Positions 350-62,844 of a stretch of DNA of 64,000 bases are shown piece by piece (the first letter of the stretch is position 1; the number at the start of each line of letters is the position of its first letter). The notes under the pieces were generated by a model. It was not told the DNA's origin. It saw only the letters and a list, made by a program, of their open reading frames with translations, and ran no database searches. The stretch is from Isurus oxyrinchus (Eukaryota). The translations under genes were made by a program, and so were the position numbers. The DNA is taken from the NCBI GenBank assembly GCA_026770705.1, contig JANJGN010000013.1, positions 61,442,001 through 61,506,000 on the forward strand. Reading direction: 5' to 3'.

Positions 350-469
350 GACAGCATGGCTGACTGGTCGAAGGTGCCAAACTCAAAGAGCGTGTATTCC
401 TTGTCTTGCAATGGCTTAGTGAATTCTGATCCCTTTCCAAGAGCATGGGTCCAAATCCCACTCCGGACA
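350..469 (+). pseudogene. Degenerate tRNA-Leu(CAA) pseudogene (left edge copy)
   Basis: GACAGCATGGCTGACTGG...CTCAAA...GGTCCAAATCCCACTCCGGACA; many stem, A-box and B-box substitutions. Confidence 0.85.
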
Positions 470-714
470 TTACTTTTTCAAAGACTCTCGTCAGCATACA
501 TTTCCTGAAAGCATCTCCAGAAATTTACGCCTGGCATATTTTACCACTTCAACGCTATTTACGTCTCAATACAAACAGAAGTTAAGCACTGCTGCTTAAA
601 TCAAGCAGGAGCAATTGATGGTTGTGCTTTGTCACTGCACAAGAGACAACGGTGTGCTCCAGTTCAGTTAGTGTACAGAATTGCAGCACACATCAACCAA
701 TAATACAGCAACTT

Positions 715-833
715 GGCAGGATGGCCCAGTGGTCTAAGTCACCAAACTCAAGAGTTGACTTTCTTTTCCTTGCAACGGCCTGGTGAATGCTCGTCCCTTT
801 CTCGGGGCGTGGGTTCAAATCCCCCTCCTGACA
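715..833 (+). pseudogene. tRNA-Leu(CAA) pseudogene, class C
   Basis: D and anticodon stems disrupted (CCAAA/GCTCG); T4 in intron at 764-767; A and B boxes retained. Confidence 0.85.
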
Positions 834-1827
834 ATACTTTTTCAAATACTCTCGCCAGCCTACATTTCCTGCCAGCCTCTCCTGAATTTTGCACCTACCA
901 CGTTTTACCACTTCAACTCTATTTACGCCTCAATACAAACACAGGTGACGCCTCCACAACCATGTCCATCACACACAAAACTTTACATGTTATATGCCTC
1001 ATGCATCAAATCACACTTCTCACACAATCAAGACCCAAACTGCAAACACAACACTCTGAGCAAACTGCATTTATACCTAGCTCCTTGCTGCATTCCACAT
1101 TGCATTCTAGGACTGCATCTTGCAATGCCATGGCGTACATTGCTTTTTCTCAAAATCAGGCCAACAGTTTCGAACAATGCCACTTCTACACAAAAACAAC
1201 TCAGTTCAACTCCCTTACTTTGGTAAGTACTTGCAAGGAAATCAGTGTCTTTAACATTCCAACTCATCCCCGGATGTGAAGCACATTACTGACCAATGAG
1301 ATGAGTTTGAATGCTGGGCCTTTCAGGTGGTAATGTTCAGAGTAATGCCATTGGCCAGGGGCACAGGGGCTGCAAGTTACCTTCATTCAATTCCAATATT
1401 GGGAGCTGCTGCTCATTGACTGGTCTTCAGCCGTTGCAGGTCCATCACGTTAATGTCATGAAAAGAAAGTCATGTGAATGAGAGGCTGAAATATCCGCTT
1501 GGAAGGATTATGTCTTACTGCCGTGTTTTTTGAAGGACTTGTGTTCCAATGGCAACTGTGTTGCTTGCATTTGGTCAAACTGAATGCCAAAATGTGTCTC
1601 AAAAAATGATGTGTGCTGCAAGGTGGAAAAATGACTGTTGATGAATAAAAGCTGTGAGTCTAAAGGTTGTTTATGGAGCAGGAAAGTAGAATTTTGTCAC
1701 TGCCTGATAAATCAAGCATGAGCAATTGATGGTTGTGCTTTGTCACTGCACAAGAGACAACGGTGTGCTCCAGTTCAGTTAGTGTACAGAATATGGAGCA
1801 CATATCAACAGAATTAAACAACAACTT

Positions 1828-1946
1828 GTCAGGATAGCTAAGTGGTCTAAGGTACCAGACTCAAAGAATGTGATTCCTTTCCTTGCAATGGCTTGGTGAA
1901 TTCTGATTCTTTTCTAGGGGTGTGGGTTCAAATCCTGCTACTGACA
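1828..1946 (+). pseudogene. tRNA-Leu(CAA) pseudogene, class B
   Basis: TAGCTAAG...GGTACC; TTCTGATTCTTTTCT with T4 at 1910-1913; altered T stem and acceptor (CCTGCTACTGAC). Confidence 0.85.
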
Positions 1947-2942
1947 TTAATTTTTCAAAAGCTCTCGCCAGCTTACATTTCCTGCCAGCCTCTCCTGAAA
2001 TTTGCGCCTGCCACATTTTACCGCTTCAACGCTATTTACGCCTCAATACAAACACAAGTTACGTCTCCACAACCATGTCCTTCACACACAAAACTTTACA
2101 TGTAATATGCCTCATGCATCAAATCGCACTTCTCACACAATCAAGACCCAAACTGCAAACACAACACTCTGAGCAAATTGCATTTATACCTAGCTCCTGG
2201 CTGCATTCCACATTGCATTCTAGGACTGCATCTTTCAATGCCATGACGTACACTGCTTTTTCTCAAAACCAGGCCAACTGTTTCAAACAATGCCACTTCT
2301 TCTACACAAAAACAACTCACTTCAACTCCCTTACTTTGGTAAGTACTAGCAAGGAAATCAGTGTCTTTAACATTCCAACTCATCCCCGGATGTGAAGCAC
2401 ATTACTGACCAATGAGATGCCTTTGAATGCTGAGCCTTTCAGGTGGTAATATTCAGAGTATTAGCTTTGGCCAGGGGCACAGGGGCTACAAATTCCCTTC
2501 GTTCAATTCCAATATTGGGAGCTGCAGCTCGTTGACTGATCTGTAGCTGTCGCAGGTCCATCACATTAATGTCATGAAAAGAAGTCATGTGAATGAGAGG
2601 CTGAAATGTCCGCTTTGAAGGAGTATGTCTTAATGCCGTGCTTTTTGAAGGACTTGTGTTCCAATGGCAACTGTATTGCTTGTGTTTGGTCAAGCTGGAC
2701 GCCAAAATGTGTTTCAGAAAATGATGCGTGCTGCAAGGTGGTAAAACGGCTGTTGATGAATGACAGCTGTGAGTCTGAAGGCTGTGTGTGGAGCAGGAAA
2801 GTAGAATTTTGTCACTGCCTGTTAAATCAAGCACGAGCAATTGATGGTTGTGCTTTGTCACTGCACAAGAGACAACGGTGTGCTCCAGTTCAGTTAGTGT
2901 ACAGAATATGGAGCACACAACAACAACATCAGACAACAACTT

Positions 2943-3061
2943 GTCAGGATGGCCGAGTGGTCTAAGGCGCCAGACTCAAGGAGTGTGATTCCTTTCCTTG
3001 CAATGGCTTGGTGAATTCTGGTCCCTTTCTAGGGGCGTGGGTTCAAATCCCACTCCTGACA
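2943..3061 (+). tRNA. tRNA-Leu-CAA: tRNA-Leu(CAA), intron-containing (intron 2981-3015), intact, class A
   Basis: Acceptor GTCAGGA/TCCTGAC+A, D stem GCC/GGC, anticodon stem CCAGA/TCTGG with loop CT-CAA-G^T, type II variable arm CCCT/AGGG, T arm GTGGG-TTCAAAT-CCCAC. The 5' exon matches the vertebrate Leu-CAA sequence as I know it. TTTT terminator 6 nt downstream. Confidence 0.95.
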
Positions 3062-3066
3062 TTAAC

Positions 3067-3070
3067 TTTT
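3067..3070 (+). terminator. RNA Pol III T4 terminator (representative; present after most copies)
   Basis: ...CCTGACA-TTAAC-TTTT-C directly after the gene. Confidence 0.8.
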
Positions 3071-4057
3071 CAAATGCTCTCGCCAGCTTACATTTCCTGC
3101 CAGCCTCTCCTGAAATTTGCTCCTGCCACGTTTTACCACTTCAACGCTATTTACGCCTCAATACAAACACAAGTTACGCCTCCACAACCATGTCCATCAC
3201 ACACAAAACTTTACATGTTATATGCCTCATGCATCAAATCACACTTCTCACACAATCAATACCCAAACTGCAAACACAACACTCTGAGCAAACTGCATTT
3301 ATACCTAGCTCCTTGCTGCATTCCACATTGTATTCTAGGACTGCATCGTTCAATGCCATGGGGTACACTGCTGTTTCTCAAACCCAGGCCAACTGTTTCG
3401 AACAATGCCACTTCCTGTACACAAAAACAACTCACTTCAACTCCCTTAATTTGGTAAGTACTTGCAAGGAAATCAGTGTCTTTAACATTCCAACTCATCC
3501 CCGGATGTGAAGCACATTACTGACCAATGAGATGCCTTTGAATGCTGGGCCTTTCAAGTGCTAATGTTCAGAGTAATGCCATTGGCCAGGGGCACAGGGG
3601 CTGCAAATTCCGTTCGATCAATTCCAATATTGGGAGCTGCTGCTCATTGACTGATCTTCAGCCATCGCAAGTCCATCACGTTAATGTCATGAAAAGAAAG
3701 TCATGTGAATTAGAGGCTGAAATGTCCGCTTGGAAGGATTATGTCTTACTGCCATGTTTTTTGAAGGACTTGTGTTCCAATGGCAACTGTGTTGCTTGCA
3801 TTTGGTCAAACTGAATGCCAAAATGTGTCTCAAAAAATGATGTGTGCTGCAAGGTGGTAAAATGACTGTTGATGAATAAAAGCTGTGAGTCTAAAGGTTG
3901 TTTATGGAGCAGGAAAGTAGAATTTTGTCACTGCCTGTTAAGTCAAGCATGAGCAATTGATGGTTGTGCTTTGTCACTGCACAAGAGACAACGGTGTGCT
4001 CCAGTTCAGTTAGTGTACAGAATTTGCAGCACACATCAACCAATTATTTAGCAACTT

Positions 4058-4176
4058 GTCAGGATGGCCCAGTGGTCTAAATCACCAAACTCAATAGTTG
4101 ATTTTCTTTTCCTTGCAACAGCCTGGTGAATGCTCATCCCTTTCTCGGGGCGTGGGTTCAAATCCCCCTCCTGACA
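4058..4176 (+). pseudogene. tRNA-Leu(CAA) pseudogene, class C
   Basis: Disrupted D and anticodon stems; ATTTTCTTTT in intron. Confidence 0.85.
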
Positions 4177-5173
4177 ATGCTTTTTCAAATGCTCTCGCCA
4201 GCCTACATTTCCTGCCAGCCTCTCCTGAATTTTGCACCTACCACGTTTTACCACTTCAACTCTATTTACGCCTCAATACAAACACAGGTGACGCCTCCAC
4301 AACCATGTCCATCACACACAAAACTTTACATGTTATATGCCTCATGCATCAAATCACACTTCTCACACAATCAAGACCCAAACTGCAAACACAACACTCT
4401 GAGCAAACTGCATTTATACCTAGCTCCTTGCTGCATTCCACATTGTATTCTAGGACTGCATCGTTCAATGCCATGGGGTACACTGCTGTTTCTCAAACAC
4501 AGGCCAACAGTTTCAAACAATGCCACTTCTTCTACACAAAAACAACTCAGTTCAAGTCTCTTACTTTGGTAAGTACTAGCAAGGAAATCAGTGTCTTTCA
4601 CATTCCAACTCATCCCCGGATGTGAAGCACATTACTGACCAATGAGATGAGTTTGAATGCTGGGCCTTTCAGGTGCAAATGTTCAGATTAATGCCATTGG
4701 CCAGGGGCACAGGGGCTGCAAATTCCCATCATTCAATTCCAATATTGGGAGCTGCTGCTCATTGACTGATCTTCAGCCATCGCAGGTCCATCACGTTAAT
4801 GTCATGAAAAGAAAGTCATGTGAATGAGAGGCTGAAATGTCCGCTTTGAAGGATTATGTCTCACTGCTGTGTTTTTTGAAGGACTTGTGTTCCAATGGCA
4901 ACTGTGTTGCTTGCAGTTGGTCAAACTGAACGCCATAATGTGTCTCATAAAATGATGTGTGCTGCAAGGTGGTAAAACGGCTGTTGATGAATAAGAGCTG
5001 TGAGTCTGAAGGTTGTCTGTGGAGCAGGAAAGGAGAATTTTGTCACTGCCTGTTAAATCAAGCATGAGCAATTGATGGTTGTGCTTTGTCACTACACAAG
5101 AGACAACGGTGTGCTCCAGTTCAGTTAGTGTACAGAATATGGAGCACATATCAACAAAATTAAACAACAACTT

Positions 5174-5292
5174 GTCAGTATAGCTAAGTGGTCTAAGGTA
5201 CCAGACTCAAGGAATGTGATTCCTTTCCTTGCAATGGCTTGGTGAATTCTGATTCCTCTCTAGGGGTGTGGGTTCAAATCCTGCTACTGACA
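5174..5292 (+). pseudogene. tRNA-Leu(CAA) pseudogene, class B
   Basis: Class B substitutions; this copy lacks the internal T4 (ATTCCTCTCT) and has GTCAGTA, which pairs with TACTGAC. Confidence 0.8.
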
Positions 5293-6286
5293 TTAATTTT
5301 TCAAATGCTCTTGCCAGCTTACATTTCCTGCCAGCCTCTCCTGAAATTTGCTCCTGCCACATTTTACCGCTTCAACGCTATTTACGCCTCAATACAAACA
5401 CAAGTTACGTCTCCACAACCATGTCCATCACACACAAAACTTTACATGTTATATGCCTCATGCATCAAATCACACTTCTCACACAATCAAGACCCAAACT
5501 GCAAACACACCACTCTGAGCAAACTGCATTTATACCTAATTCCTTGCTGCATTCCACATTGCATTCTAGGACTGCATCTTTCAATGCCATGGCATACACT
5601 GATTTTTCTCAAAACCAGGCCAACAGTTTCGAACAATGCCACTTCAACACAAAAACAACTCAGTTCAAGTCCCTTACTTTGGTAAGTACTTGCAAGGAAA
5701 TCAGTGTCTTTCACATTCCAACTCATCCCCGGATGTGAAGCACATTACTGACCAATGAAATGAGTTTGAATGCTAGGCCTTTCAGGTGCTAATGTTCAGA
5801 TTAATGCCATTGGCCAGGGGCACAGGGGCTGCAAATTCCCTTCATTCAATTCCAATATTGGGAGCTGCTGCTCATTGACTGGTCTTCAGCCATCGCAGGT
5901 CCATCACGTTAATGTCATGAAAAGAAAGTCATGTGAATGAGAGGCTGAAATGTCCGCTTTGAAGGATTATGTCTCACTGCTGTGTTTTTTGAAGGACTTG
6001 TGTTCCAATGGCAACTGTGTTGCTTGCAGTTGGTCAAACTGAACGCCATAATGTGTCTCATAAAATGATGTGTGCTGCAAGGTGGTAAAACGGCTGTTGA
6101 TGAATAAGAGCTGTGAGTCTGAAGGTTGTCTGTGGAGCAGGAAAGGAGAATTTTGTCACTGCCTGTTAAATCAAGCATGAGCAATTGATGGTTGTGCTTT
6201 GTCACTGCACAAGAGACAACGGTGTGCTCCAGTTCAGTTAGTGTACAGAATATGGAGCACATATCAACAAAATTAAACAACAAATT

Positions 6287-6405
6287 GTCAGGAAGGCCGA
6301 GTGGTCTAAGGTGCCAGACTCAAGGAGTGTGATTCCTTTCCTTGCAACGGCTTGGTGAGTTCTGGTCCCTTTCTAGGGGCGTGGGTTCAAATCCCACTCC
6401 TGACA
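6287..6405 (+). tRNA. tRNA-Leu-CAA: tRNA-Leu(CAA), class A, probably impaired (U8>A, C25>U)
   Basis: GTCAGGAAGGCCGAG: invariant U8 / A-box T lost; sits behind a B-type leader. Confidence 0.6.
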
Positions 6406-7402
6406 TTAACTTTTCAAATGCTCTCGCCAGCTTACATTTCCTGCCAGCCTCTCCTGAAATTTGCTCCTGCCACGTTTTACCACTTCAATGCTATTTACGC
6501 CTCAATACAAACACAAGTTACGCCTCCACAACCATGTACATCACACACAAAACTTTACATGTTATATGCCTCATGCATCAAATCACACTTCTCACACAAT
6601 CAAGACCCAAACTGCAAACACAACACTCTGAGCAAATTGCATTTATACCTAGCTCCTTGCTGCATTCCACATTGTATTCTAGGACTGCATCGTTCAATGC
6701 CATGGGGTACACTGCTGTTTCTCAAACCCAGGCCAACTGTTTCGAACAATGCCACTTCCTGTACACAAAAACAACTCACTTCAACTCCCTTAATTTGGTA
6801 AGTACTTGCAAGGAAATCAGTGTCTTTAACATTCCAACTCATCCCCGGATGTGAAGCACATTACTGACCAATGAGATGCCTTTGAATGCTGGGCCTTTCA
6901 GGTGCTAATGTTCAGAGTAATGCCATTGGCCAGGGGCACAGGGGCTGCAAATTCCGTTCGTTCAATTCCAATATTGGGAGCTGCTGCTCATTGACTGATC
7001 TTCAGCCATCGCAGGTCCATCACGTTAATGTCATGAAAAGAAAGTCATGTGAATGAGAGGCTGAAATGTCCGCTTGGAAGGATTATGTCTTACTGCCGTG
7101 TTTTTTGAAGGACTTGTGTTCCAATGGCAACTGTGTTGCTTGCATTTGGTCAAACTGAATGCCAAAATGTGTCTCATAAAATGATGTGTGCTGCAAGGTG
7201 GTAAAATGACTGTTGATGAATAAAAGCTGTGAGTCTGAAGGTTGTCTGTGGAGCAGGAAAGTAGAATTTTGTCACTGCCTGTTAAATCAAGCACGAGCAA
7301 TTGATGGTTGTGCTTTGTCACTGCACAAGAGACAACGGTGTGCTCCAGTTCAGTTAGTGTACAGAATATGGAGCACACAACAACAACATCAAACAACAAC
7401 TT

Positions 7403-7521
7403 GTCAGGATGGCTGAGTGGTCTAAGGTGCCAGCCTCAAGGAGTGTGATTCCTTTCCTTGCAACGGCTTGGTGAATTCTGGTCCCTTTCTAGGGGCGTGG
7501 GTTCAAATCCCACTCCTGACA
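7403..7521 (+). tRNA. tRNA-Leu-CAA: tRNA-Leu(CAA), class A, probably impaired
   Basis: GGCTGAG, GGTG and CCAGC: two D-stem wobbles and an anticodon-stem mismatch. Confidence 0.6.
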
Positions 7522-8517
7522 TTAACTTTTCAAATGTTCTCGCCAGCTTACATTTCCTGCCAGCCTCTCCTGAAATTTGCTCCTGCCATATTTTACCACT
7601 TCAACGCTATTTACGCCTCAATACAAACACAAGTTACGCCTCCACAACCATGTCCATCACACACAAAACTTTACATGTCATATGCCTCATGCATCAAATC
7701 ACACTTCTCACACAATCAAGACCCAAACTGCAAACACACCACTCTGAGCAAATTGCATTTATACCTAGCTCCTTGCTGCATTCCACATTGCATTCTAGGA
7801 CTGCATCTTTCAATGCCATGGCGTACACTGCTGTTTCTCAAACCCAGGCCAACTGTTTCAAACAATGCCACTTCTTCTACACAAAAACAACTCACTTCAA
7901 CTCCCTTACTTTGGTAAGTACTAGCAAGGAAATCAGTGTCTTTAACATTCCAACTCATCCCCGGATGTGAAGCACATTACTGACCAATGAGATGCCTTTG
8001 AATGCTGAGCCTTTCAGGTGGTAATATTCAGAGTATTAGCTTTGGCCAGGGGCACAGGGGCTGCAAATTCCCTTCGTTCAATTCCAATGTTGGGAGCTGC
8101 TGCTCGTTGACTGAGCTGTAGCCGTCGCAGGTCCATCACATTAATTTCATGAAAAGAAGTCATGTGAATGAGAGGCTGAAATGTCCGCTTTGAAGGAGTA
8201 TGTCTTAATGCCGTGTTTTTTGAAGGACTTGTGTTCCAATGGCAACTGTATTGCTTGTGTTTGGTCAAGCTGGACGCCAAAATGCGTCTCAGAAAATGAT
8301 GCGTGCTGCAAGATGGTAAAACGGCTGTTGATGAATGACAGCTGTGAGTCTGAAGGCTGTGTGTGGAGCAGGAAAGTAGAATTTTGTCACTGCCTGTTAA
8401 ATCAAGCACGAGCAATTGATGGTTGTGCTTTGTCACTGAACAAGAGACAACGGTGTGCTCCAGTTCAGTTAGTGTACAGAATATGGAGCACACAACAACA
8501 ACATCAAACAACAACTT

Positions 8518-8636
8518 GTCAGGATGGCCGAGTGGTCTAAGGCGCCAGACTCAAGGAGTGTGATTCCTTTCCTTGCAACAGCTTGGTGAATTCTGGTCCC
8601 TTTCTAGGGGCGTGGGTTCAAATCCCACTCCTGACA
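8518..8636 (+). tRNA. tRNA-Leu-CAA: tRNA-Leu(CAA), intron-containing, intact
   Basis: Exons identical to the 2943 copy; TTTT terminator. Confidence 0.95.
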
Positions 8637-9632
8637 TTAACTTTTCAAATGCTCTCGCCAGCTTACATTTCCTGCCAGCCTCTCCTGAAATTTGCTCCTG
8701 CCACGTTTTACCACTTCAACGCTATTTACGCCTCAATACAAACACAAGTTACGCCTCCACAACCATGTACATCACACACAAAACTTTACATGTTATATGC
8801 CTCATGCATCAAATCACACTTCTCACACAATCAAGACCCAAACTGCAAACACACCACTCTGAGCAAACTGCATTTATACCTAGCTCCTTGCTGCATTCCA
8901 CATTGTATTCTAGGACTGCATCGTTCAATGCCATGGGGTACACTGCTGTTTCTGAAACCCAGGCCAACTGTTTCAAACAATGCCACTTCCTCTACACAAA
9001 AACAACTCACTTCAACTCCCTTAATTTGGTAAGTACTTGCAAGGAAATCAGTGTCTTTCACATTCCAACTCATCCCCGGATGTGAAGCACATTACTGACC
9101 AATGAGATGCCTTTGATTGCTGGGCCTTTCTGGTGCTAATGTTCAGAGTAATGCCATTGGCCAGGGGCACAGGGGCTGCAAATTCCATTAGTTCAATTCC
9201 AATATCGGGAGCTGCTGCTCATTGACTGATCTTCAGCCATCGCAGGTCCATCACATTAATGTCATGAAAAGAAAGTCATGTGAATGAGAGGCTGAAATGT
9301 CCGCTTGGAAGGATTATGTCTTACTGCCATGTTTTTTGAAGGACTTGTGTTCCAGTGGCAACTGTGTTGCTTGCATTTGGTCAAACTGAATGCCAAAATG
9401 TGTCTCAAAAAATGATGTGTGCTGCAAGGTGGAAAAATGACTGTTGATGAATAAAAGCTGTGAGTCTAAAGGTTGTTTATGCAGCAGGAAAGTAGAATTT
9501 TGTCACTGCCTGTTAAGTCAAGCATGAGCAATTGATGGTTGTGCTTTGTCACTGCACAAGAGACAACGGTGTGCTTCAGTTCAGTTAGTGTACAGAATTT
9601 GCAGCACACATCAACCAATTAGTTAGCAACTT

Positions 9633-9751
9633 GTCAGGATGGCCCAGTGGTCTAAATCACCAAACTCAATAGTTGATTTTCTTTTCCTTGCAACAGCCTG
9701 GTGAATGCTCATCCCTTTCTCGGGGCGTGGGTTCAAATCCCACTCCTGACA
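9633..9751 (+). pseudogene. tRNA-Leu(CAA) pseudogene, class C
   Basis: Class C substitutions; intronic T4 runs. Confidence 0.85.
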
Positions 9752-10748
9752 ATGCTTTTTCAAATGCTCTCGCCAGCCTACATTTCCTGCCAGCCTCTCC
9801 TGAATTTTGCACCTACCACGTTTTACCACTTCAACTCTATTTACGCCTCAATACAAACACAGGTGACGCCTCCACAACCATGTCCATCACACACAAAACT
9901 TTACATGTTATATGCCTCATGCATCAAATCACACTTCTCACACAATCAAGACCCAAACTGCAAACACAACACTCTGAGCAAACTGCATTTATACCTAGCT
10001 CCTTGCTGCATTCCACATTGTATTCTAGGACTGCATCGTTCAATGCCATGGGGTACACTGCTGTTTCTCAAACACAGGCCAACTGTTTCAAACAATGCCA
10101 CTTCTTCTACACAAAAACAACTCAGTTCAAGTCCCTTACTTTGGTAAGTACTAGCAAGGAAATCAGTGTCTTTCACATTCCAACTCATCCCCGGATGTGA
10201 AGCACATTACTGACCAATGAGATGAGTTTGAATGCTGGGCCTTTCAGGTGCTAATGTTCAGATTAATGCCATTGGCCAGGGGCACAGGGGCTGCAAATTC
10301 CCATCATTCAATTCCAATATTGGGAGCTGCTGCTCATTGACTGGTCTTCAGCCATCGCAGGTCCATCACGTTAATGTCATGAAAAGAAAGTCATGTGAAT
10401 GAGAGGCTGAAATGTCCGCTTTGAAGGATTATGTCTCACTGCTGTGTTTTTTGAAGGACTTGTGTTCCAATGGCAACTATGTTGCTTGCAGTTGGTCAAA
10501 CTGAACGCCATAATGTGTCTCATAAAATGATGTGTGCTGCAAGGTGGTAAAACGGCTGTTGATGAATAAGAGCTGTGAGTCTGAAGGTTGTCTGTGGAGC
10601 AGGAAAGGAGAATTTTGTCACTGCCTGTTAAATCAAGCATGATCAATTGATGGTTGTGCTTTGTCACTACACAAGAGACAACGGTGTGCTCCAGTTCAGT
10701 TAGTGTACAGAATATGGAGCACATATCAACAAAATTAAACAACAACTT

Positions 10749-52099: not shown

Positions 52100-53096
52100 T
52101 TAACTTTTCAAATGCTCTCGCCAGCTTACATTTCCTGCCAGCCTCTCCTGAAATTTGCTCCTGCCACATTTTACCACTTCAACGCCATTTACGCCTCAAT
52201 ACAAACACAAGTTACGCCTCCACAACCATGTCCATCACACACAAAACTTTACAATTAATATGCCTCATGCATCAAATCTCACTTCTCACACAATCAAGAC
52301 CCAAACTACAAACACACCACTCTGAGCAAACAGCATTTATACCTAGCTCCTTGCTGCATTCCACATTGCATTCTAGGACTGCATTGTTCAATGCCATGGG
52401 GTACACTGCTGTTTCTCAAACCCAGGCCAACTGTTTCAAACAATGCCACTTCTTCTACAGAAAAACAACTCACTTCAACTCCCTTATTTTGGTAAGTACT
52501 TGCAAGGAAATCAGAGACTTTAACATTCCAACTCATCCCTGGATGTGAAGCAGGTTACTGACAGGTGAGATGCCTTTGAATGCTGAGCCTTTCAGGTGGT
52601 AATATTGAGAGTATTACCTTTGGCCAGGGGCACAGGGGCTGCAAATTACCTTCGTTCAATTCCAATATTGGGAGCTGCTGCTCGTTGACTGATCTGTACC
52701 TGTTGCAGGTCCATCACATTAATGTCATGAAAAGAAAGTCATGGGAATGAGCGGCTGAAATGTCCGCTTTGAAGGAGTATGTCTTACTGCCGTGCTTTTT
52801 GAAGGCCTTGTGTTCCAATGGCAACTGTATTGCTTATGTTTGGTCAAGCTAGACGCCAAAATGTGTCTCAGAAAATGATGCGTGCTGCAAGGTGGTAAAA
52901 TGACTGTTGATGAATAAAAGCTGTGAGTCTGAAGGTTGTTTGTGGAGCAGGAAAGTAGAATTTTGTCACTGCCTGTTAAATCAAGCACGAGCAATTGATA
53001 GTTGTGCTTTGTCACTGCACAAGAGACAACGGTGTACTCCAGTTCAGTTAGTGTACAGAATATGGAGCACACAACAACAACATCAAATGACAACTT

Positions 53097-53215
53097 GTCA
53101 GGATGGCCGAGTGGTCTAAGGTGCCAGACTCAAGGAGTGTGATTCCTTTCCTTGAAACGGCTTGGTGAATTCTGGTCCCTTTCTAGGGGCGTGGGTTCAA
53201 ATCCCACTCCTGACA
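53097..53215 (+). tRNA. tRNA-Leu-CAA: tRNA-Leu(CAA), near-intact (C25>U)
   Basis: Single exon change; TTTT terminator. Confidence 0.85.
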
Positions 53216-54211
53216 TTAACTTTTCAAATGCTCTCGCCGGCTTACATTTCCTGCCAGCCTCTCCTGAAATTTGCTCCTGCCACATTTCACCACTTCAACG
53301 CTATTTACGCCTCAATACAAACACAAGTTACGCATCCACAACCATGTCCATCACACACAAAACTTTACATTTAATATGCCTCATGCTTCAAATCACACTT
53401 CTCACACAATCAAGACCCAAACTGCAAACACACCTCTCTGAGCAAACTGCATTTATACCTAGCTCCTAGCTGCATTCCACATTGCATTCTAGGACTGCAT
53501 CTTTCAATGCCATGGCGTACACTGCTGTTTCTCAAAACCAGGACAACTGCTTAAAACAATGCCACTTCTTCTACACAAAAACAACTCACTTCAACTCCCT
53601 TACTTTGGTAAGTACTTGCAAGGAAATCAGAGACTTCAACATTCCAACTCATCCCGGGATGTGAAGCACATTACTGACAGGTGAGATGCCTTTGAATGCT
53701 GAGCCTTTCAGGTGGTAATATTCAGAGTATTACCTTTGGCCAGGGGCACAGGGGCTGCAAATTCCCTTCGTTCAATTCCAATATTGGGAGCTGCTGCTCG
53801 TTGACTGATCTGTAGCCGTCGCATGTCCATCACATTAATGTCATGAAAATAAAGTCATGTGAATGAGAGGCTGAAATGTCCGCTTTGAAGGAGTATGTCT
53901 CACTGCCGTGTTTTTTGAAGGACTTGTGTTCCAATGGCAACTGTATTGCTTGTGTTTGGTCAAGCTGGATGCCAAAATGTGTCTCAAAAAATGATGTGTG
54001 CTGCAAGGTGGTAAAACTGTTGTTGAAGAAAAAAGCTGTGAGTCTAAAGGTTGTTTGTGGAGCACGAAAGTAGAATTTTGTCACTGCCTGTTAAATCAAG
54101 CACGAGCAATTGATGGTTGTGCTTTGTCACTGCACAAGAGACAACGGTGTGCTCCAGTTCAGTTAGTGTACAGAATTTGCAGCACATATCAACCAAAATG
54201 AAAAACAACTT

Positions 54212-54330
54212 GTCAGGATAGCTAAGTGGTCTAAGGCGCCAGATGCAGCAAATGTGATTCTTTTCCTTACAACGGCCTGGTGAATGCTCGTCCTTTTCTA
54301 GGGGCGTGGGTTCAAATCCCCCTCCTGACA
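54212..54330 (+). pseudogene. tRNA-Leu pseudogene, class D (anticodon loop TGCAGC)
   Basis: B-like D arm, C-like 3' exon, altered anticodon loop, two internal T4 runs. Confidence 0.85.
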
Positions 54331-55318
54331 ATACTTTTTCAAACACTCTCGCCAGCCTACATTTCCTGCCAGCCTCTCCTGAAATTTGCTCCTGCCACGT
54401 TTTACCACTTCAACGCTATTTACGCCTCAATACAAACACAAGTGACGCCTCCACAACCATGTCCATCACACACAAAACTTTACATGTAATATGCCTCATG
54501 CATCAAATCACACTTCTCACACAATCAAGACCCAAACTGCAAACACACCACTCTGAGCAAACTACATTTATACCTAGCTCCTTGCTGCATTCCACATTGT
54601 ATTCTAGGACTGCATCTTTCAATGCCATGGGGTACACTGCTGTTTCTCAAACCCAGGCCAACTGTTTCAAACAATACCACTTCCTCTACACAAAAACAAC
54701 TCACTTCAACTCCCTTAATTTGGTAAGTACTTGCAAGGAAATCAGTGTCTTTAACATTCCAATTCATCCCCGGATGTGAAGCACATTACTGACCAAGGAG
54801 ATGCCTTTGAATGCTGGGCCTTTCAGGTGCTAATGTTCAGAGTAATGCCATTGGCCAGGGGTAAAGGGGCTGCAAATTCCGTTCGTTCAATTCCAATATT
54901 GGGAGCTGCTGCTCATTGACTGATCTTCAGCCATCGCAGGTCCATCACGTTAATGTCATGAAAAGAAAGTCATGTGAATGAGAGGCTGAAATGTCCGCTT
55001 GGAAGGATTAAGACTTACTGCCGTGTTTTTTGAAGGACTTGTGTTCCAATGGCAACTGTATTGCTTGTGTTTGGTCAAGCTGGATGCCAAAATGTGTCTC
55101 AAAAAATGATGTGTGCTGCAAGGTGGTAAAACTGTTGTTGAAGAAAAAAGCTATGAGTCTAAAGGTTGTTTGTGGAGCACGAAAGTAGAATTTTGTCACT
55201 GCCTGTTAAATCAAGCACGATGGTTGTGCTTTGTCTCTGCACAGGAGACAACAGTGTGCTCCAGTTCAGCTGGTGTACAGAATTTGCAGCACATCTCAAC
55301 CAAAATGAAAAACAACTT

Positions 55319-55423
55319 GTCAGGATAGCTGAGTGATCTAAGGTGCCAAACTCTTTTCCTTGCAACGGCCTGGTGAATGCTTGTCCCTTTCTAGGGGCGT
55401 GGGTTCAAATCCCACTCCTGACA
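55319..55423 (+). pseudogene. tRNA-Leu pseudogene, class D, 14-bp deletion through anticodon and 5' splice site
   Basis: ...CCAAACTC|TTTTCCTTG...; 105 bp instead of 119. Confidence 0.88.
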
Positions 55424-55672
55424 ATACTTTTTCAAATACTCTCGCCAGCTTACATTTCCAGCCAGCCTCTCCTTAAATTTGCTCCTGCCACGTTTTACCA
55501 CTTCAACGCTATTTACGCCTCAATACAAACACAAGTGACGCCTCCACAACCATGTCCATCACACACAAAACTTTACATGTAATATGCCTCATGCATCAAA
55601 TCACACTTCTCACACAATCAAGACCCAAACTGCATACACACCACTCTGAGCAAACTACATTTATACCTAGCT

Positions 55673-56369
55673 GACCTGCGGTCTGTCCGCAAGAATGACC
55701 CAAACCTCCCTGTCGCTTGCCATTTTAACACTCCACCCTGCTCTCTTGCCCACATGTCTGTCCTTGGCTTGCTGCATTGTTCCAGTGCAGCCCAACGCAA
55801 ACTGGAGGAACAACACCTCATCTTCCGACTAGGCACCTTACAGCCTTCCGGACTGAATATTGAATTCAACAACTTTAGGTCGTGAGCTCCCTCCCCCATC
55901 CCCACCCCATTTCTGTTTCCCCCTTTCTTTTTTTTTCCAATAAATTATATAGATTTTTCTTTTCCCACCTATTTCCATTATTTTTAAATATTTTAAAATC
56001 TTTTATGCTCTCCCCACCCCCATTAGAGCTATACCTTGAGTGCCCTACCATCCATTCTTAATTAGCACATTCGTTTAGATAATATCACCAACTTTAACTT
56101 TAACACCTATGTGTTCTATTGTACCATTGTTGTTGACATCTTTTGATGATCTGCTTCTATCACTGCTTGTTTGTCCATACAACCACCTCTCTCTCTCTCT
56201 ATCTCTCCACCCCCCACACACACACCTTAAACCAGCTTATATTTCAACTTTTTCTTGGACTCGAACTCAAGTTCTGTCGAAGGGTCATGAGGACGCGAAA
56301 CGTCAACTCTTTTCTTCTCCGCCGATGCTGCCAGACCTGCTGAGTTTTTCCAGGCAATTCTGTTTTTGT
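55673..56369 (+). mobile_element. 5'-truncated Penelope-like retroelement insertion with 13-bp target-site duplication
   Basis: TSD TTTATACCTAGCT at 55660-55672 and 56370-56382. 55673-55885 encodes the GIY-YIG C-terminal part (LRSVRKNDPNLPVACHFN...EQHLIFRLGTLQPSGLNIEFNNFRS*). Hammerhead-like motif near the 3' end. Confidence 0.9.
56270..56308 (+). ncRNA. Minimal hammerhead-ribozyme-like motif in the Penelope 3' terminus (variant core)
   Basis: AGTT-CTGTCGA-A-GGGTC.ATGAG.GACGC-GAAA-CG-TC-AACT: stem I AGTT/AACT, core like CUGANGA...GAAA..UH, minimal stem III. Penelope-like elements are known to carry such motifs. Confidence 0.65.
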
Positions 56370-57128
56370 TTTATACCTAGCTCCTTGCTGCATTCCACAT
56401 TGTATTCTAGGACTGCATCTTTCAATGCCATGGGGTACACTGCTGTTTCTCAAACCCAGGCCAACTGTTTCAAACAATGTCACTTCTTTACACAAAAACA
56501 ACTCTGTTCAACTCCCTTAATTTGGTAAGTACTAGCAAGGAAATCAGTGTCTTTAACATTCCAACTCATCCCCGGTGTGAAGCACATTACTGACCAATGA
56601 GATGCCTTTGAATGCTGGGCCTTTCAGGTGCTAATGTTCAGAGTAATGCCATTGGCCAGTAACAAAGGGGCTGCAAATTCCGTTCGTTCAATTCTAATAT
56701 TGGGAGCTGCTGCTCATTGACTGATCTTCAGCCATCGCAGGTCCATCACGTTAATGTCATGAAAAGAAAGTCATGTGAATGAGAGGCTGAAATGTTCGCT
56801 TGGAAGGATTATGTCTTACTGCCGTGTTTTTTGAAGGACTTGTGTTCCAATGGCAACTGTATTGCTTGCATTTGGACAAGCTGGATGCCAAAATGTGTCT
56901 CAAAAAATGATGTGTGTTGCAAGGTGGTAAAATGACTGTTGATGAATAAAAGCTGTGAGTCTAAAGGTTGTTTATGGAGCTGGAAAGTAGAATTTTGGCA
57001 CTGCCTGTTAAATCAAGCATGAGCAATTGATGGTTGTGTTTTGTCACTGCACAAGAGACAACGGTGTGCTCCAGTTCAGTTAGTGTACAGAATATGGAGC
57101 ACATATCAACACTGTTAAACAACAACTT

Positions 57129-57247
57129 GTCAGGATAGCTAAGTGGTCTAAGGTGCCATACTCAAGGAGTGTGATTCCTTTCCTTATAATGGCTTGGTGA
57201 ATTCTGATTCTTTTCTAGGGGTGTGGGTTCAAATCCTGCTACTGACA
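57129..57247 (+). pseudogene. tRNA-Leu(CAA) pseudogene, class B
   Basis: Class B D arm and 3' exon; T4 in variable arm. Confidence 0.85.
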
Positions 57248-58243
57248 TTAATTTTTCAAATGCTCTCGCCAGCTTACATTTCCTGCCAGCCTCTCCTGAA
57301 ATTTGCTCCTGCCACATTTTACCACTTCAACGCTATTTACGCCTCAATACAAACACAAGTGACGCCTCCACAACCATGTCCATCACACACAAAACTTTAC
57401 ATTTAATATGCCTCATGCATCAAATCACACTTCTCACACAATCAAGACCCAAACTGCAAACACACCACTCTGAGCAAACCGCATTTATACCTAGCTCCTT
57501 GCTGCATTCCACATTGCATTCTAGGACTACATCTTTCAATGCCATGGGGTACACTGCTGTTTCTCAAACCCAGGCCAACTGTTTCAAACAATGCCACTTC
57601 TTCTACACAAAAACAACTCACTTCAACTCCCTTACGTTGGTAAGTACTTGCAAGGAAATCAGAGACTTTAACATTCCAACTCATCCCCGGATGTGAAGCA
57701 TATTACTGACCAATGAGATGCCTTTGAATGCTGGGCTTTTCAGGTGGCAATATTCGGAGTAATGCCATTGGCCAGGGGCACAGGGGCTGCAAATTCCCTT
57801 TGTTCAATTCCAATATTGGGAGCTGCTGCTCGTTGACTGATCTTCAGCCGCCGCACGTCCATCACGTTAATGTCATGAAAAGAAAGTCATGTGAATGAGA
57901 GGCTGAAATGTCCGCTTGGAAGGATTATGTCTTACTGCCGTGTTTTTTGAAGGACTTGTGTTCCAATGGCACGTGTGTTGCTTGCATTTGGTCAAGCTGG
58001 ACGCCAAAATGTGTCTCAAAAAATGATGTGTGCTGCAAGGTGGTAAAACTGTTGTTGAAGAAAAAAGCTGTGAGTCTAAAGGTTGTTTGTGGAGCACGAA
58101 AGTAGAATTTTGTCACTGCCTGTTAAATCAAGCACGAGCAATTGATGGTTGTGCTTTGTCACTGCACAAGAGACAACGGTGTGCTCCAGTTCAGTTAGTG
58201 TACAGAATTTGCAGCACATATCAACCAAAATGAAAAACAACTT

Positions 58244-58362
58244 GTCAGGATAGCTGAGTGGTCTAAGGTGCCAGATGCAATGAATGTGATTCTTTTCCTT
58301 GCAACGGCCTGGTGAATGCTCGTCCCTTTCTAGGGGCGTGGATTCAAATCCCCCTCCTGACA
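58244..58362 (+). pseudogene. tRNA-Leu pseudogene, class D
   Basis: CCAGATGCAAT loop, B box GGATTCAAAT, intronic T4. Confidence 0.85.
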
Positions 58363-59354
58363 ATACTTTTTCAAATACTCTCGCCAGCCTACATTTCCTG
58401 CCAGCCTCTCCTGAAATTTGCGCCTGCCACGTTTTACCACTTCAACTCTATTTACGCCTCAATACGAACACAAGTGACGCCTCCACAACCATGTCCATCA
58501 CACACAAAACTTTACATTTAATATGCCTCATGCATCAAATCACACTTCTCACACAATCAAGACCCAAACTGCAAACACACCACTCTGAGCAAACTACATT
58601 TATACCTAGCTCCTTGCTGCATTCCACATTGTATTCTAGGACTGCATCTTTCAATGCCATGGGGTACACTGCTGTTTCTCAAACCCAGGCCAACTGTTTC
58701 GAACAATGCCACTTCCTCTACACAAAAACAACTCACTTCAACTCCCTTAATTTGGTAAGTACTTGCAAGGAAATCAGTGTTTTTAACATTCCAACTCATC
58801 CCCGGATGTGAAGCACATTATGACCAATGAGATGCCTTCGAATGCTGGGCCTTTCAGGTGCTAATGTTCAGAGTAATGCCATTGGCCAGGGGCACAGGGG
58901 CTGCAAATTCCGTTCGTTCAATTCCAATATTGGGAGCTGCTGCTCATTGACTGGTCTTCAGCTGTCGCAGGTCCATCACGTTAATGTCATGAAAAGAAAG
59001 TCATGTGAATGAGAGGCTGCAATGTCCTCTTTGAAGGATTATTCCCTTCTGCTTTTTTTTGAAGGACTTGTGTTCCAATGGCAACTGTGTTGCTTGCATT
59101 TGGTCAAGCTGGACGCCAAAATGTGTCTCAGAAAATGATGTGTGCTGCAAGGTGGTAAAATAGCTTTTGGTGTATAAAAGCTGTGAGTCTGAAGCTTGTT
59201 TGTGGAGCAGGAAAGGAGAATTTTGTCACTGCCTGTTAAATCAAGCACGAGCAATTGATGATTGTGCTTTGTCACTGCACAAGAGACAACGGTGTGCTCC
59301 AGTTGTTAGTGTACAGAATTTGCAGCACACATCAATAATAATAAATAGCAACTT

Positions 59355-59473
59355 GTCAGGATGGCTGAGTTGTGTAAGGTGCCAGACTCAAGGAGTGAGA
59401 TTCCTTACCTTGCAATGGCTTGGTGAATTCTGGTTCCTTTCTTGGGGCGTGGGTTCAAATCCCCCTCCTGACA
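59355..59473 (+). pseudogene. tRNA-Leu(CAA) pseudogene (edge copy)
   Basis: D loop GAGTTGTGTAA, T-stem mismatch. Confidence 0.85.
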
Positions 59474-59876
59474 AACTTTTGAAATGCTCTCCCAAGCCTA
59501 CATTTCCTGCCAGCCTCTCCTGAAATATGCGCCTGCCACATTTTACCACTTCGATGCTATTTACGACTCAATACAAACACAAGTTACACCTCCACTACCA
59601 TGTCCATCACAAACAAAACTTTACATGTTATATGCCTCATGCATCAAATCACACTTCTCACACAATCAAGACCCAAACTGCAAACACACCACTCTGAGCA
59701 AACTGCATTTATACCTAGCTCCTTGCTGCATTCCACATGGCATTCTAGGACTGCATCGTTCAATGCCATGGGGTACACTGCTGTTTCTCAAAACCAGGAC
59801 AACTGTTTCAAACAATGCCACTTCTTCTACACAAAAACAACTCACTTCAACTCCCTTACTTTGGCAAGTACTTGCA

Positions 59877-59976
59877 NNNNNNNNNNNNNNNNNNNNNNNN
59901 NNNNNNNNNNNNNNNNNNNNNNNNNNNNNNNNNNNNNNNNNNNNNNNNNNNNNNNNNNNNNNNNNNNNNNNNNNNN
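59877..59976. other. Assembly gap (100 N)
   Basis: Run of exactly 100 N; true size unknown. Confidence 0.99.
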
Positions 59977-60398: not shown

Positions 60399-60402
60399 CT
60401 AA

Positions 60403-60753: not shown

Positions 60754-61065
60754 ATGACCTCCTCCATCCCCACCCCCTTTCTGTTTCTTCCCCCTCCCTT
60801 TTGTTTTTTCCAATAATTTATATAGATTTTTTTCCCCACCTATTTCCATTATATTTAAATCTATACTTTTATGCTCTTTTAGTCTTATTTCACCCCACCC
60901 CCACCAGAGCTATCTGTACCTTGAATGTCCCTGCTATCCATTCTTAATTAGCACATTCTTTTAGATTATATCACCATCTTCAATAACTCTTTGTTCTCTT
61001 GTCTGTGACATCTTTTGGTTATCTGCTCCTATCACTGCCTGCTTGTCGCTACAACCATCCCTGCA

Positions 61066-61156
61066 CCCCCCCCACCCTCCACTTCTTCCCCCCCACCCAC
61101 CCCCCCCCGCACCTCTCTCCCCAACCACCGCCCCCCCCCCCCCCCCCCCCCCCCCC
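61066..61156 (+). repeat. C-rich low-complexity tract including C26 within the Penelope 3' UTR
   Basis: C runs from 61066, uninterrupted C at 61131-61156. Confidence 0.9.
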
Positions 61157-61199
61157 ACCTTAAACTAGCTTATATTTCACCCCTCTCCTATTTTTACTT

Positions 61200-61239
61200 A
61201 GTTCTGTTGAAGGGTCATTCGGACTCAGAAACATTGACT
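61200..61239 (+). ncRNA. Degenerate hammerhead-like motif (Penelope 3' terminus)
   Basis: AGTT-CTGTTGA-AGGGTC.ATTCG.GACTC-A-GAAA-CA-TT-GACT. Confidence 0.5.
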
Positions 61240-61732
61240 GTGTTCCTCTCTGCAGATGCTGCCAGACCTGCTGAGTTTTTCCAGGTATTTTTGTTTTTGT
61301 TTACTGACAAACTAGATGCCTTTGAATGCTGGGCCTTTCAGGTGGTAATGTTCAGAGTAACGCCTCAATACAAACACAAGTTACACTTCCACAACCATGT
61401 CCATGACACACAAAACTTTACACATAATATACCTCATCTTTCAAATGACACTTCTCCCACAATCATGACCCAAACTGCAAACACACCACTCTGAGCAAAC
61501 TACGTTTATTCGGAGCTCCTTGCTGCATTCCACATTGCATTCTAGGACTACATCTTTCAATGCCATGGGGTACACTGCTGTTTCTCAAACCCAGGACAAC
61601 TGTTTCAAACAATGCCACTTCTTCTACACAAAAACAACTCACTTCAACTCCCTTACTTTGGCAAGTACTTGCAAGGATACCATTGAATTTACCTTTCCAA
61701 GTCATCCCCTGATGAGAAGCAGAATACTGACA

Positions 61733-62170
61733 CACCCCCTTTCCAATAATTTATATAGATTTTTCTTTTCCCACCTATTTCCATTTTTTAAAATTTATTT
61801 CCATCCATTCTTTTAACTTTACCTTTTTCGATTCCTTCACCCCACCCCACCCCGTCTAGGGCCATCTGTAAATTTTGTGTCCTGCTTTCTACCCTTAATT
61901 AGCACATTCTTTAGATAATATCGCCACATTCAACATCTCTTTGTCCTTTTGACTGTGACATCTTTTGGTTATCTCCACGTATCACTGACCCTTTACCCAG
62001 TTCAACTTGTCCCACACCACCCGCCCCCCCTTAAAGCAGCTTATATTTCACCCCTCTCCTATTTTTACTTAGTTCTGTTGAAGGGTCATTCGGACTCGAA
62101 TCATTGACTGTGTTCCTCTCTGCAGATGCTGCCAGACCTGCTGAGTTTTTCCAGGTATTTTGTTTTTGTT
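61733..62170 (+). mobile_element. Short Penelope-like 3' fragment with 8-bp target-site duplication
   Basis: TACTGACA at 61725-61732 and 62171-62178; homologous to the 3' UTR of the other copies; hammerhead-like motif at 62071-62109. Confidence 0.85.
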
Positions 62171-62755
62171 TACTGACAAACTGGATGCCTTTGAATGCTG
62201 GGCCTTTCAGGTGGTAATGTTCAGAGTAATGCGATTGGCCAGGGGCACAGGGGCTGCAAATGCCCTTCGTTCAATTCCAATATTGGGAGCTGCTGCTCAT
62301 TGTCTGGTCTTCAGCCGTTGCAGGTCTATCACGTTAATGTCATGAAAAGAAAGGCATGTGAATGAGAGGCTGAAATGTCCGCTTGGAAGGATTATTCCCT
62401 TCTGCTGTGTGTTTTGAAGGACTTGTGTTCCAATGGCAACTCTGTTGCTTGCGATTGGTGAAGCTGGTGGCAGAAATGTGTCTCAGAAAATGATGTTTGC
62501 TGCAAGGGGGTAAATGGCTGTTGATGAATAAAAGCTGTGAGTCTGAAGGTTGTTTGTGGAGCAGGAAAGGAGAATTTTGGCACTGCCTGTTAAATCAAGC
62601 ACGAGCAATTGATGGTTGTGCTTTGTCACTACACAAGAGACAACGGTGTGCTCCAGTTCAGTTAGTGTACAGAATTTGCAGCACACCCTGGCAATCTTGA
62701 GCAGCTGCTCAACAATGGAAATAGGTGGGAAAAAAAAAATCTATATAAATTATTG

Positions 62756-62844
62756 GAGTGGTCTCACGGAGTGTGATGCCTTGCAATGGCTTGGTGAATT
62801 CTGGTCCCTTTCTCAGGGCATGGGTTCAAATCCCACTCCTGACG
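62756..62844 (+). pseudogene. tRNA-Leu remnant (5' end replaced, internal deletions)
   Basis: GAGTGGTCT..GGAGTGTGAT..TTCTGGTCCC...GGGTTCAAATCCCACTCCTGAC. Confidence 0.85.

What the first reader, a model, noticed from the sequence alone, without database searches (positions are those of the whole stretch)
350..62844. A ~63-kb single-isoacceptor array of intron-containing tRNA-Leu(CAA) genes in which only about a third of copies look functional
Seen: 54 copies plus a remnant on one strand at ~1115-bp spacing; 13 have canonical exons, 4 are near-intact, and the rest are defective but were co-amplified. Known: tandem tRNA arrays exist in vertebrates such as Xenopus and zebrafish, often linked to oocyte supply, and Leu-CAA is one of the few intron-bearing vertebrate isoacceptors. 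Inference: this may be a dosage or germline-type Leu-CAA locus evolving as a macrosatellite. Its variable arm (CCCT-TTCT-AGGG) and Watson-Crick G5-C acceptor pair differ from the mammalian Leu-CAA sequences I recall, suggesting an array-specific isodecoder.
Basis: partly seen in the sequence, partly recalled or inferred. Interest (0 to 1): 0.75.

Follow-up and report, generated by a model that had tools for sequence, protein, structure and literature searches.

The report
Tandem array of leucine tRNA genes
A shark-like genome holds a 60-kb head-to-tail array of 54 intron-containing leucine tRNA genes, a third of them intact, that encode a tRNA variant distinct from its three scattered genes and that likely stock eggs or early embryos, as clustered tRNA genes do in zebrafish.

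Summary
Confirmed: 54 tRNA-Leu(CAA) copies plus a remnant, + strand, ~1,115-bp period. 12 have perfect exons, 6 more keep all stems and promoter boxes, 3 are damaged and 33 are decayed. The array tRNA differs from the genome's three dispersed Leu-CAA genes at 8 of 84 positions, including two compensatory variable-arm pairs. No sibling array shares the spacer.

Indirect evidence of function: (1) five independent spacer-less, intron-keeping copies elsewhere look like retrocopies of its pre-tRNA; (2) since those arose, the intact lineage fixed 0 exon changes and 3 intron changes; (3) new mutations pile up just upstream of intact copies, matching the published signature of tRNA transcription. Dead copies were co-amplified in multi-unit blocks.

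The kind is known: this genome also has Cys, Lys and Sec arrays, sharks are reported to have expanded intron-containing tRNA loci, and zebrafish has a maternal clustered versus late dispersed Leu-CAA switch. No RNA or read data were obtained, so splicing, tissue bias and true copy number are untested (an assembly gap cuts the array). New member of a known kind; interest 0.4.

The parts
228..59876 (+). Tandem array of ~1,115-bp units, each one tRNA-Leu(CAA) gene (119 bp: exon 38, intron 35, exon 46) plus ~996 bp spacer; 54 gene copies
2943..3061 (+). Intact (class A) copy, perfect exons, T4 terminator; reference copy
8518..8636 (+). Class A, perfect exons, T4
11865..11983 (+). Class A, perfect exons, terminator reduced to T3
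14096..14214 (+). Class A, perfect exons, terminator reduced to T3
15211..15329 (+). Class A, perfect exons, T4
25248..25366 (+). Class A, perfect exons, T4
31930..32048 (+). Class A, perfect exons, terminator reduced to T3
36390..36508 (+). Class A, perfect exons, T4
38620..38738 (+). Class A, perfect exons, T4
41970..42088 (+). Class A, perfect exons, T5
43086..43204 (+). Class A, perfect exons, T4
49752..49870 (+). Class A, perfect exons, T4
12980..13098 (+). Class A near-intact (1 exon change, all stems paired); likewise 17441, 21902, 33045 (2 changes), 45306, 53097
6287..6405 (+). Class A but damaged (U8 lost, A box broken); likewise 7403 and 27478 (an anticodon-stem pair broken)
1828..1946 (+). 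Example of decayed class B (19 of 51 aligned units; 9-17 exon changes, most gene CpGs lost, intron nearly intact)
4058..4176 (+). Example of decayed class C (8 of 51 aligned units; anticodon stem broken, 10-11 intron changes); followed by a B copy in 7 of 8 cases
2913..2942 (+). 5' flank (-30..-1 of each gene): most variable part of the unit, every site from -19 to -7 polymorphic
55319..55423 (+). Copy with a ~15-nt deletion over the anticodon and intron start
55660..56382 (+). 3' fragment of a GIY-YIG-type (Penelope-like, family name recalled) retroelement inserted in a spacer, flanked by a 13-bp target-site duplication
   Evidence: family by likeness to the ORF at 60403-60750
59877..59976 (.). 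Assembly gap (100 N) at the right end of the array; true copy number unknown
61301..63335 (+). Relic, rearranged unit pieces between retroelement fragments, including the 5'-truncated tRNA remnant 62763-62843

Best explanation
This is a tandem array of tRNA-Leu(CAA) genes whose intact third encodes a distinct, fully base-paired isodecoder that is likely transcribed by Pol III, likely spliced, and likely serves as a high-dose egg or early-embryo supply, while the three dispersed genes would cover later somatic need. Shown from sequence: copy count, classes, intact cloverleaf, promoter boxes, terminator, intron geometry, compensatory variable-arm changes, a mosaic spacer and multi-unit block duplications. 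Inferred: transcription in the germline (retro-like copies, 5'-flank hypermutation); purifying selection on the intact lineage; turnover by unequal crossing-over and gene conversion that carries dead copies along as neighbours in blocks (for example A-C-B). By analogy only: the maternal bias. Odds: a functional source of tRNA about 0.8; maternal or germline bias given function about 0.6.
For: Structure: all stems paired, anticodon CAA, C32 pairs with intron position -3, T4 terminator; cloverleaf -34.3 versus -31.1 kcal/mol for the dispersed type. LeuRS identity elements A73, A4:U69, G5:C68 and the long arm are present. Against the dispersed genes: 5' exon 38 of 38 identical, intron only 23-24 of 36-37 aligned columns, 8 mature differences of which 4 form two compensatory pairs. 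Five independent dispersed copies of the array type start at gene positions +1, +2, +13, +17 and +42, end at +121 to +130, keep the intron and carry no spacer. They have decayed at 23 of 326 non-CpG exon sites, the oldest at 9 of 76, while the intact lineage differs from their shared state at 3 of 35 intron and 0 of 84 exon sites once one CpG homoplasy is set aside (Fisher p=0.024). Against relic units: 27 of 537 spacer sites versus 0 of 67 non-CpG exon sites (p=0.039). 5' flank: 26 alleles in 30 sites versus about 9 expected; young alleles in core intact copies 6/30 versus 38/935 in spacer (p=0.0017), not significant in dead copies (3/30 versus 49/935, p=0.22). This matches the -12 to -15 peak reported for active tRNA genes (PMC6130373). 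Precedent: in zebrafish, Leu-CAA switches isodecoder at about 5 hpf, with early forms in repetitive clusters and late forms dispersed (PMC11417395), and a maternally expressed Leu-CAA cluster is named in 10.1101/869651.
Against: No RNA or read evidence was obtained. 33 of 54 copies are dead. Intact copies carry CpG transitions at 3 of 6 CpG sites against 6 of 78 other exon sites, which points to methylation or to conversion from dead copies. Constraint among young alleles is weak: 9 exon alleles in class A versus 15.9 expected, p=0.045, and private exon alleles in core A copies (3/84) occur at about the spacer rate. The retro-like copies show no convincing target-site duplications and predate the present intron, so they date past rather than present activity. 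There is no C>T over G>A strand excess in the gene (9 versus 10 alleles), and the 5' flank is CAA-rich, which could raise variation by itself. Zebrafish clustered tRNA genes are near-fully CpG-methylated in embryos (PMC11574265). Germline transcription marks are expected of housekeeping genes too: the dispersed type also has three decayed intron-keeping copies.
Confidence: 0.5

Rival explanations
1. A functional but not stage-specific dosage array: the intact copies are simply the main Leu-CAA source in all tissues.
For: The assembly has only 3 intact dispersed genes against 18 functional-looking array copies. All the evidence for selection and transcription fits housekeeping use equally well. 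Arraying seems a general habit of this genome, even for tRNA-Sec.
Against: Two distinct isodecoders are kept, one clustered and one dispersed, the layout that marks maternal versus somatic types in zebrafish. CpG loss in intact copies fits part-time methylation better than constant use.
Confidence: 0.3
2. A now-inert or nearly inert tRNA-derived satellite: a once-active gene was amplified neutrally, and the intact class persists by drift.
For: 61% of copies are decayed yet were amplified in recent blocks (1-7 differences per unit). CpG decay reaches intact copies. Within-class constraint is borderline. Copy-number drift was proposed for the Arabidopsis tRNA array (PMC2886086 abstract).
Against: Zero fixed exon changes over a span in which spacer-less copies lost up to about 12% of non-CpG exon sites. 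A bimodal distance distribution with an empty 4-6 class, unlike ten 84-nt spacer windows. Young 5'-flank mutations are enriched around intact copies.
Confidence: 0.15
3. The copy number and block structure are partly assembly artefacts (collapsed or doubled haplotypes).
For: Some units differ at only 1-3 sites; the array ends at a gap.
Against: Nearest-neighbour distances range from 1 to 65, no two aligned units are identical, mosaic patterns are nested, and relic units lie on both sides.
Confidence: 0.05

Closest known systems
Zebrafish maternal-type clustered tRNA isodecoders, including Leu-CAA (PMC11417395; 10.1101/869651)
   Same: One isoacceptor present as a repetitive cluster with its own isodecoder plus a few dispersed genes of another isodecoder.
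   Different: There expression in eggs is measured; here it is not. Orthology and synteny are not established: no host gene was found in 70 kb on either side and no SRP RNA gene nearby.
Expanded tRNA loci of sharks, including intron-containing and selenocysteine tRNAs (10.1101/2025.06.08.657570)
   Same: This genome has 21 arrayed tRNA-Sec copies over the Rfam cut-off and this intron-containing array; the locus is a concrete case of the reported counts.
   Different: The passages read give counts and chromosomal clusters, not unit structure, isodecoder identity, the fraction of dead copies or tests of selection.
Human 1q23.3 tRNA variable-number tandem repeat (PMC4041453) and the Arabidopsis Ser-Tyr-Tyr tRNA array (PMC2886086; isotypes recalled)
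   Same: Head-to-tail tRNA units turning over by unequal crossing-over and concerted evolution.
   Different: Those units carry several tRNA genes (7.3-kb unit; triplet unit). Here one gene per 1.1-kb unit, with about 60% pseudogenes. Copy-number variation between individuals was not tested here.
Xenopus oocyte-type tandem tRNA gene cluster (recalled; search gave no direct paper)
   Same: Tandemly amplified tRNA genes tied to oocyte supply.

Membership tests
Eukaryotic intron-containing tRNA-Leu(CAA) gene | Cloverleaf with all stems paired and CAA anticodon | tested here: met
   19 of 54 copies (the class A copies without a broken pair) pair in all five stems; 18 are called by ARAGORN with the canonical intron
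Eukaryotic intron-containing tRNA-Leu(CAA) gene | Internal A and B boxes and an oligo-T terminator | tested here: met
   20 of 21 class A copies have both boxes (also 23 of 33 decayed copies); T4 or longer in 18 of 21 class A copies
Eukaryotic intron-containing tRNA-Leu(CAA) gene | Intron between 37 and 38 with anticodon-intron pair and 3-nt 3' bulge (PMC10539383) | tested here: met
   35-nt intron; C32 faces G at intron -3 in all 21 class A copies; the MFE fold shows that pair and the 3-nt bulge
Eukaryotic intron-containing tRNA-Leu(CAA) gene | LeuRS identity elements A73, A4:U69, G5:C68, long variable arm (PMC11028032) | tested here: met
Eukaryotic intron-containing tRNA-Leu(CAA) gene | Spliced, CCA-tailed, aminoacylated RNA exists | not testable with these tools
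   No RNA holder was listed and no reads were laid
Maternal-type clustered isodecoder (zebrafish kind) | Encoded in a repetitive cluster, with a different isodecoder in isolated genes | tested here: met
   Array type differs at 8 of 84 sites from 3 dispersed intact genes; no intact array-type gene was found outside the array
Maternal-type clustered isodecoder (zebrafish kind) | Abundant in eggs and early embryos, replaced after zygotic activation | not testable with these tools
   No stage-resolved tRNA data available
Maternal-type clustered isodecoder (zebrafish kind) | Orthology with the zebrafish Leu-CAA cluster | tested here: inconclusive
   The 45 ORFs scanned (of 163 of 110 aa or more) from the flanking 140 kb gave only retroelement and transposase domains; no SRP RNA hit
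Macrosatellite / tRNA tandem repeat | Long head-to-tail units under concerted evolution | tested here: met
   Units 90-98% alike, mosaic spacers, block duplications
Macrosatellite / tRNA tandem repeat | Copy number varies among individuals | not tested
   One assembly only, with a gap at the array end
tRNA-derived SINE | Many dispersed copies with a tRNA head, a non-tRNA body and a tail | tested here: not met
   Only 7 dispersed array-type copies were seen, tRNA-only with no shared body (these searches score only their best 40 candidates); the spacer occurs only at this locus

The most novel reading that the evidence does not exclude
Cartilaginous fishes run a dual maternal/somatic tRNA system like zebrafish: this array is the egg-type Leu-CAA locus with its own compensatorily diverged isodecoder, and the Cys, Lys and Sec arrays are its counterparts. 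That would place clustered maternal tRNA sets at or before the jawed-vertebrate ancestor (or show repeated origin) and explain why sharks have inflated tRNA counts.
Probability: 0.35. Interest if true: 0.65.

Novelty: new member of a known kind. Interest (0 to 1): 0.4.

Why it matters
[quoted passage not shown] The array is also a natural experiment on tRNA gene mutation: live and dead genes share one spacer, and the gene and its 5' flank are 2-3 times as diverse as that spacer. It also cautions against using tRNA gene counts as a measure of supply, since about two thirds of these copies are dead.

Tried and rejected
Sequencing runs: no RNA holder listed; this is no evidence either way. Laying reads returned nothing, which leaves splicing, expression, depth-based copy number and cross-species letters open.

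ARAGORN's His, Glu, Arg, Thr and Leu-CAG calls on array or dispersed copies are mis-parsed introns and were rejected. A unit tree was not interpreted because the units are recombinant mosaics. The ACB permutation had a coding error (p printed as 0); it was redone (5 observed, 1.26 expected, p=0.0026). Local alignments ran into non-homologous flanks of the dispersed copies, so the strict counts are used. Unit-level statistics use 51 of 54 units (350, 715 and 55319 left out as partial or deleted); 'core' statistics also leave out the six aligned edge units numbered 48 and above.

SINE origin: rejected (no body, few dispersed copies). Sibling arrays: 57 genome-wide candidates for a spacer probe equal the 57 copies in the 204 kb held around the locus. 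Synteny search found no host gene. A protein-coding reading of the spacer was not pursued: the stop-to-stop frames listed for 55.6-64 kb were not scanned beyond three retroelement ORFs. Earlier scan notes: none for this genome; the eight word hits were unrelated loci in other genomes. Literature searches listed no description of a shark Leu-CAA array; the library lacks most subscription journals, and the zebrafish preprint's supplementary table (not available) would give that cluster's place and sequence.
Full report
OBSERVATION. The window is C13:61,442,001-61,506,000 of a 4.98-Gb genome. One gene copy used as a query finds 54 copies from 350 to 59,473 and a truncated remnant at 62,763-62,843, all on the + strand. 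51 of 53 spacings are 1,104-1,123 bp. The first unit is internally deleted (365 bp) and one spacer holds a ~700-bp retroelement fragment with a 13-bp target duplication. Whole units are about 90-98% identical to a reference unit. The array ends at a 100-N gap at 59,877-59,976, so 54 is a minimum or an assembly estimate. Decayed relic units lie beyond the gap and up to about 34 kb upstream. Rfam scores 38 of 54 copies as tRNA; the best score, 52.5 bits, is close to the 52.9 of the dispersed intact genes.

CLASSES. Exon distance to the intact haplotype is bimodal: 12 copies with 0 changes, 6 with 1, 2 with 2, 1 with 3 (class A, 21 copies), none with 4-6, and 33 with 7-17 or a deletion. Of class A, 18 keep all stems and both promoter boxes; 3 are damaged; 3 of the 12 perfect copies have only T3 at the terminator, with the next T4 70, 70 and 311 bp downstream. 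The dead copies are mostly two old haplotypes. B (19 of 51 aligned units) has lost most gene CpGs; C (8 of 51) has a broken anticodon stem and a changed intron. Mean CpG count in the gene is 3.5 in A and 0.8 in dead copies. 23 of 33 dead copies still match both promoter boxes, so some may be transcribed into faulty precursors (inference).

THE tRNA. The gene has a 38-nt exon, a 35-nt intron and a 46-nt exon. C32 pairs with the G three bases before the intron end, leaving a 3-nt bulge, the geometry described for human TSEN substrates (PMC10539383 passages). A73, A4:U69, G5:C68 and the long arm, listed as human LeuRS identity elements (PMC11028032 passages), are present. An exact search for the 5' exon finds 16 places: 13 in the array and 3 dispersed genes on C1 and C9. 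A search with the dispersed 3' half adds only decayed copies and Leu-CAG genes among the 12 loci fetched. The mature array tRNA differs from the dispersed type at 8 of 84 positions: two compensatory pair swaps and two loop bases in the variable arm, A for G at T-loop 57, and C for U at 68. The introns match at only 23-24 of 36-37 columns. All 52 collinear copies carry A57.

IS IT ACTIVE? No direct data: no RNA holder was listed and no reads were laid. Three indirect lines point to activity.

(a) Seven dispersed copies of the array type, from five independent insertions (the three on C21 share a flank), lack the spacer, keep the intron, begin at gene positions +1, +2, +13, +17 or +42 and end at +121 to +130. 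Ends at the mature 5' end and in the 3' trailer fit reverse-transcribed pre-tRNA; no convincing target duplication was found, so this is inference. The dispersed type has three such decayed copies too.

(b) These copies have decayed at 23 of 326 non-CpG exon sites, up to 9 of 76. Differences shared by at least 3 of 5 mark changes in the source lineage: three intron sites and one exon CpG site. The CpG change is absent from two duplicates of a copy that has it, so it is homoplasy. That gives 3 of 35 intron versus 0 of 84 exon sites (p=0.024). Relic units give 27 of 537 spacer versus 0 of 67 non-CpG exon sites (p=0.039).

(c) Diversity peaks at the gene: pi is 0.053 in the spacer, 0.148 in the 30-nt 5' flank, 0.118 in exons and 0.113 in the intron; within class A, exons fall to 0.014 against 0.046 in the spacer. 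The 5' flank has 26 alleles against about 9 expected; the highest 30-nt spacer window has 15. Every site from -19 to -7 varies. Young private alleles in core class A copies are five times enriched there (p=0.0017), but not significantly in dead copies (p=0.22). Thornlow et al. report a peak 12-15 nt upstream of active tRNA genes (PMC6130373, parts 1-2 of 6 read).

Against activity: CpG transitions at 3 of 6 CpG sites in class A exons; borderline within-class constraint (p=0.045); no strand asymmetry; a low-complexity flank; and alleles shared by descent make the Poisson tests approximate.

HOW THE ARRAY EVOLVES. Spacers are mosaics. Association between gene class and neighbouring variants is r2 0.57-0.76 from -60 to +240 and at most 0.4 further out. 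Gene distances between classes (0.13-0.23) far exceed spacer distances (0.054-0.062), so the spacer is homogenised across classes while old gene haplotypes persist. Recent block duplications mix live and dead copies, for example units 10-12 with 28-30 and 37-39 with 44-46 (1-7 differences per unit). C is followed by B in 7 of 8 cases (p=0.0026) and A-C-B occurs 5 times (p=0.0026). Unequal crossing-over plus short conversion tracts, with selection keeping enough intact copies, explains this (inference). A spacer probe has 57 genome-wide candidates and 57 copies in the 204 kb held around the locus, so the assembly shows no sibling array.

CONTEXT. Single-isoacceptor arrays are common here: Cys-GCA (6 copies, 1.87-kb period, decayed tRNA-like copies in the units), Lys-UUU (6 at 4.5 kb; 9 at mostly 0.9-1.3 kb) and tRNA-Sec (21 copies over cut-off at a 2.77-kb period on C6 and an unplaced contig). 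Many tRNA-Sec copies and abundant intron-containing tRNA loci are reported as shark traits (10.1101/2025.06.08.657570 passages), which is my basis for calling the genome shark-like. In zebrafish, Leu-CAA is one of the named examples of an isodecoder switch at about 5 hpf, with egg forms in repetitive clusters and late forms dispersed (PMC11417395, passages and section 20). A maternally expressed Leu-CAA cluster is mentioned in 10.1101/869651 (parts 1-2 of 3). Clustered zebrafish tRNA genes are heavily methylated in embryos (PMC11574265 passages). Other tRNA arrays: PMC4041453 (search listing with start of abstract) and PMC2886086 (abstract and outline). PMC8450103 (passages) added nothing on this locus. 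Xenopus oocyte clusters are recalled only. Eight searches listed no account of this locus.

VERDICT. Most likely a functional clustered Leu-CAA isodecoder array (about 0.8), probably egg or germline-biased (about 0.5 overall). It is a new member of a known kind. Interest 0.4, or 0.65 if the maternal system is shown in sharks (probability 0.35).

Noticed in passing
G000 C6:165,702,110-165,728,772 and C4202:2,396-33,021: Tandem tRNA-Sec array with a 2,770-bp period, 9 plus 12 copies over the Rfam cut-off, in at least three score classes; part lies on an unplaced contig.
   Followed up: no
L061-L062 (C14), L063-L065 (C35), L066-L067 (C2): Other single-isoacceptor arrays: Cys-GCA x6 at 1.87 kb with a decayed tRNA-like copy in the units, Lys-UUU x6 at 4.5 kb, Lys-UUU x9 with alternating spacing.
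   Followed up: partly
L015:1426-1532 and 2185-2291, - strand: Two near-full-length U6 snRNA copies, each followed by the same GC-rich sequence, one preceded by a weak tRNA match; they look like a retroelement inserted at or fused to U6, about 28 kb upstream of the array.
   Followed up: no
L045:929-1211 (C10): A decayed array-type Leu-CAA copy lies within about 160 bp of further tRNA-like sequences (one Rfam hit, 47 bits), suggesting concatenated tRNA copies.
   Followed up: no
L026, L068, L069 (C21:113.06, 113.86, 113.21 Mb): One retro-like array-type copy occurs three times with the same flank, so it was later duplicated segmentally.
   Followed up: partly
L051, L053, L057: Decayed copies of the dispersed Leu-CAA type also keep their introns, so copying of unspliced pre-tRNA seems general in this genome; no spliced copy of either type was seen among those examined.
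   Followed up: partly
L027:1615-1635 versus the array trailer: The C1 dispersed gene shares about 20 bp of 3' trailer similarity with the array unit, while the array intron start resembles the C9 genes; a hint at the array's origin.
   Followed up: no
G000 C50, C40, C37: Many matches to the Leu 3' exon are spread over small contigs; the six examined are intact intronless Leu-CAG genes.
   Followed up: partly
window 60,403-60,750: GIY-YIG ORF fragment of a Penelope-like retroelement (Pfam E=0.0018, below the curated cut-off; atlas score 0.95); related fragments break up the array's right edge.
   Followed up: partly
L023:3631-7697: A 4-kb 18-bp CT-rich minisatellite about 54 kb downstream of the window creates long spurious ORFs.
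   Followed up: yes
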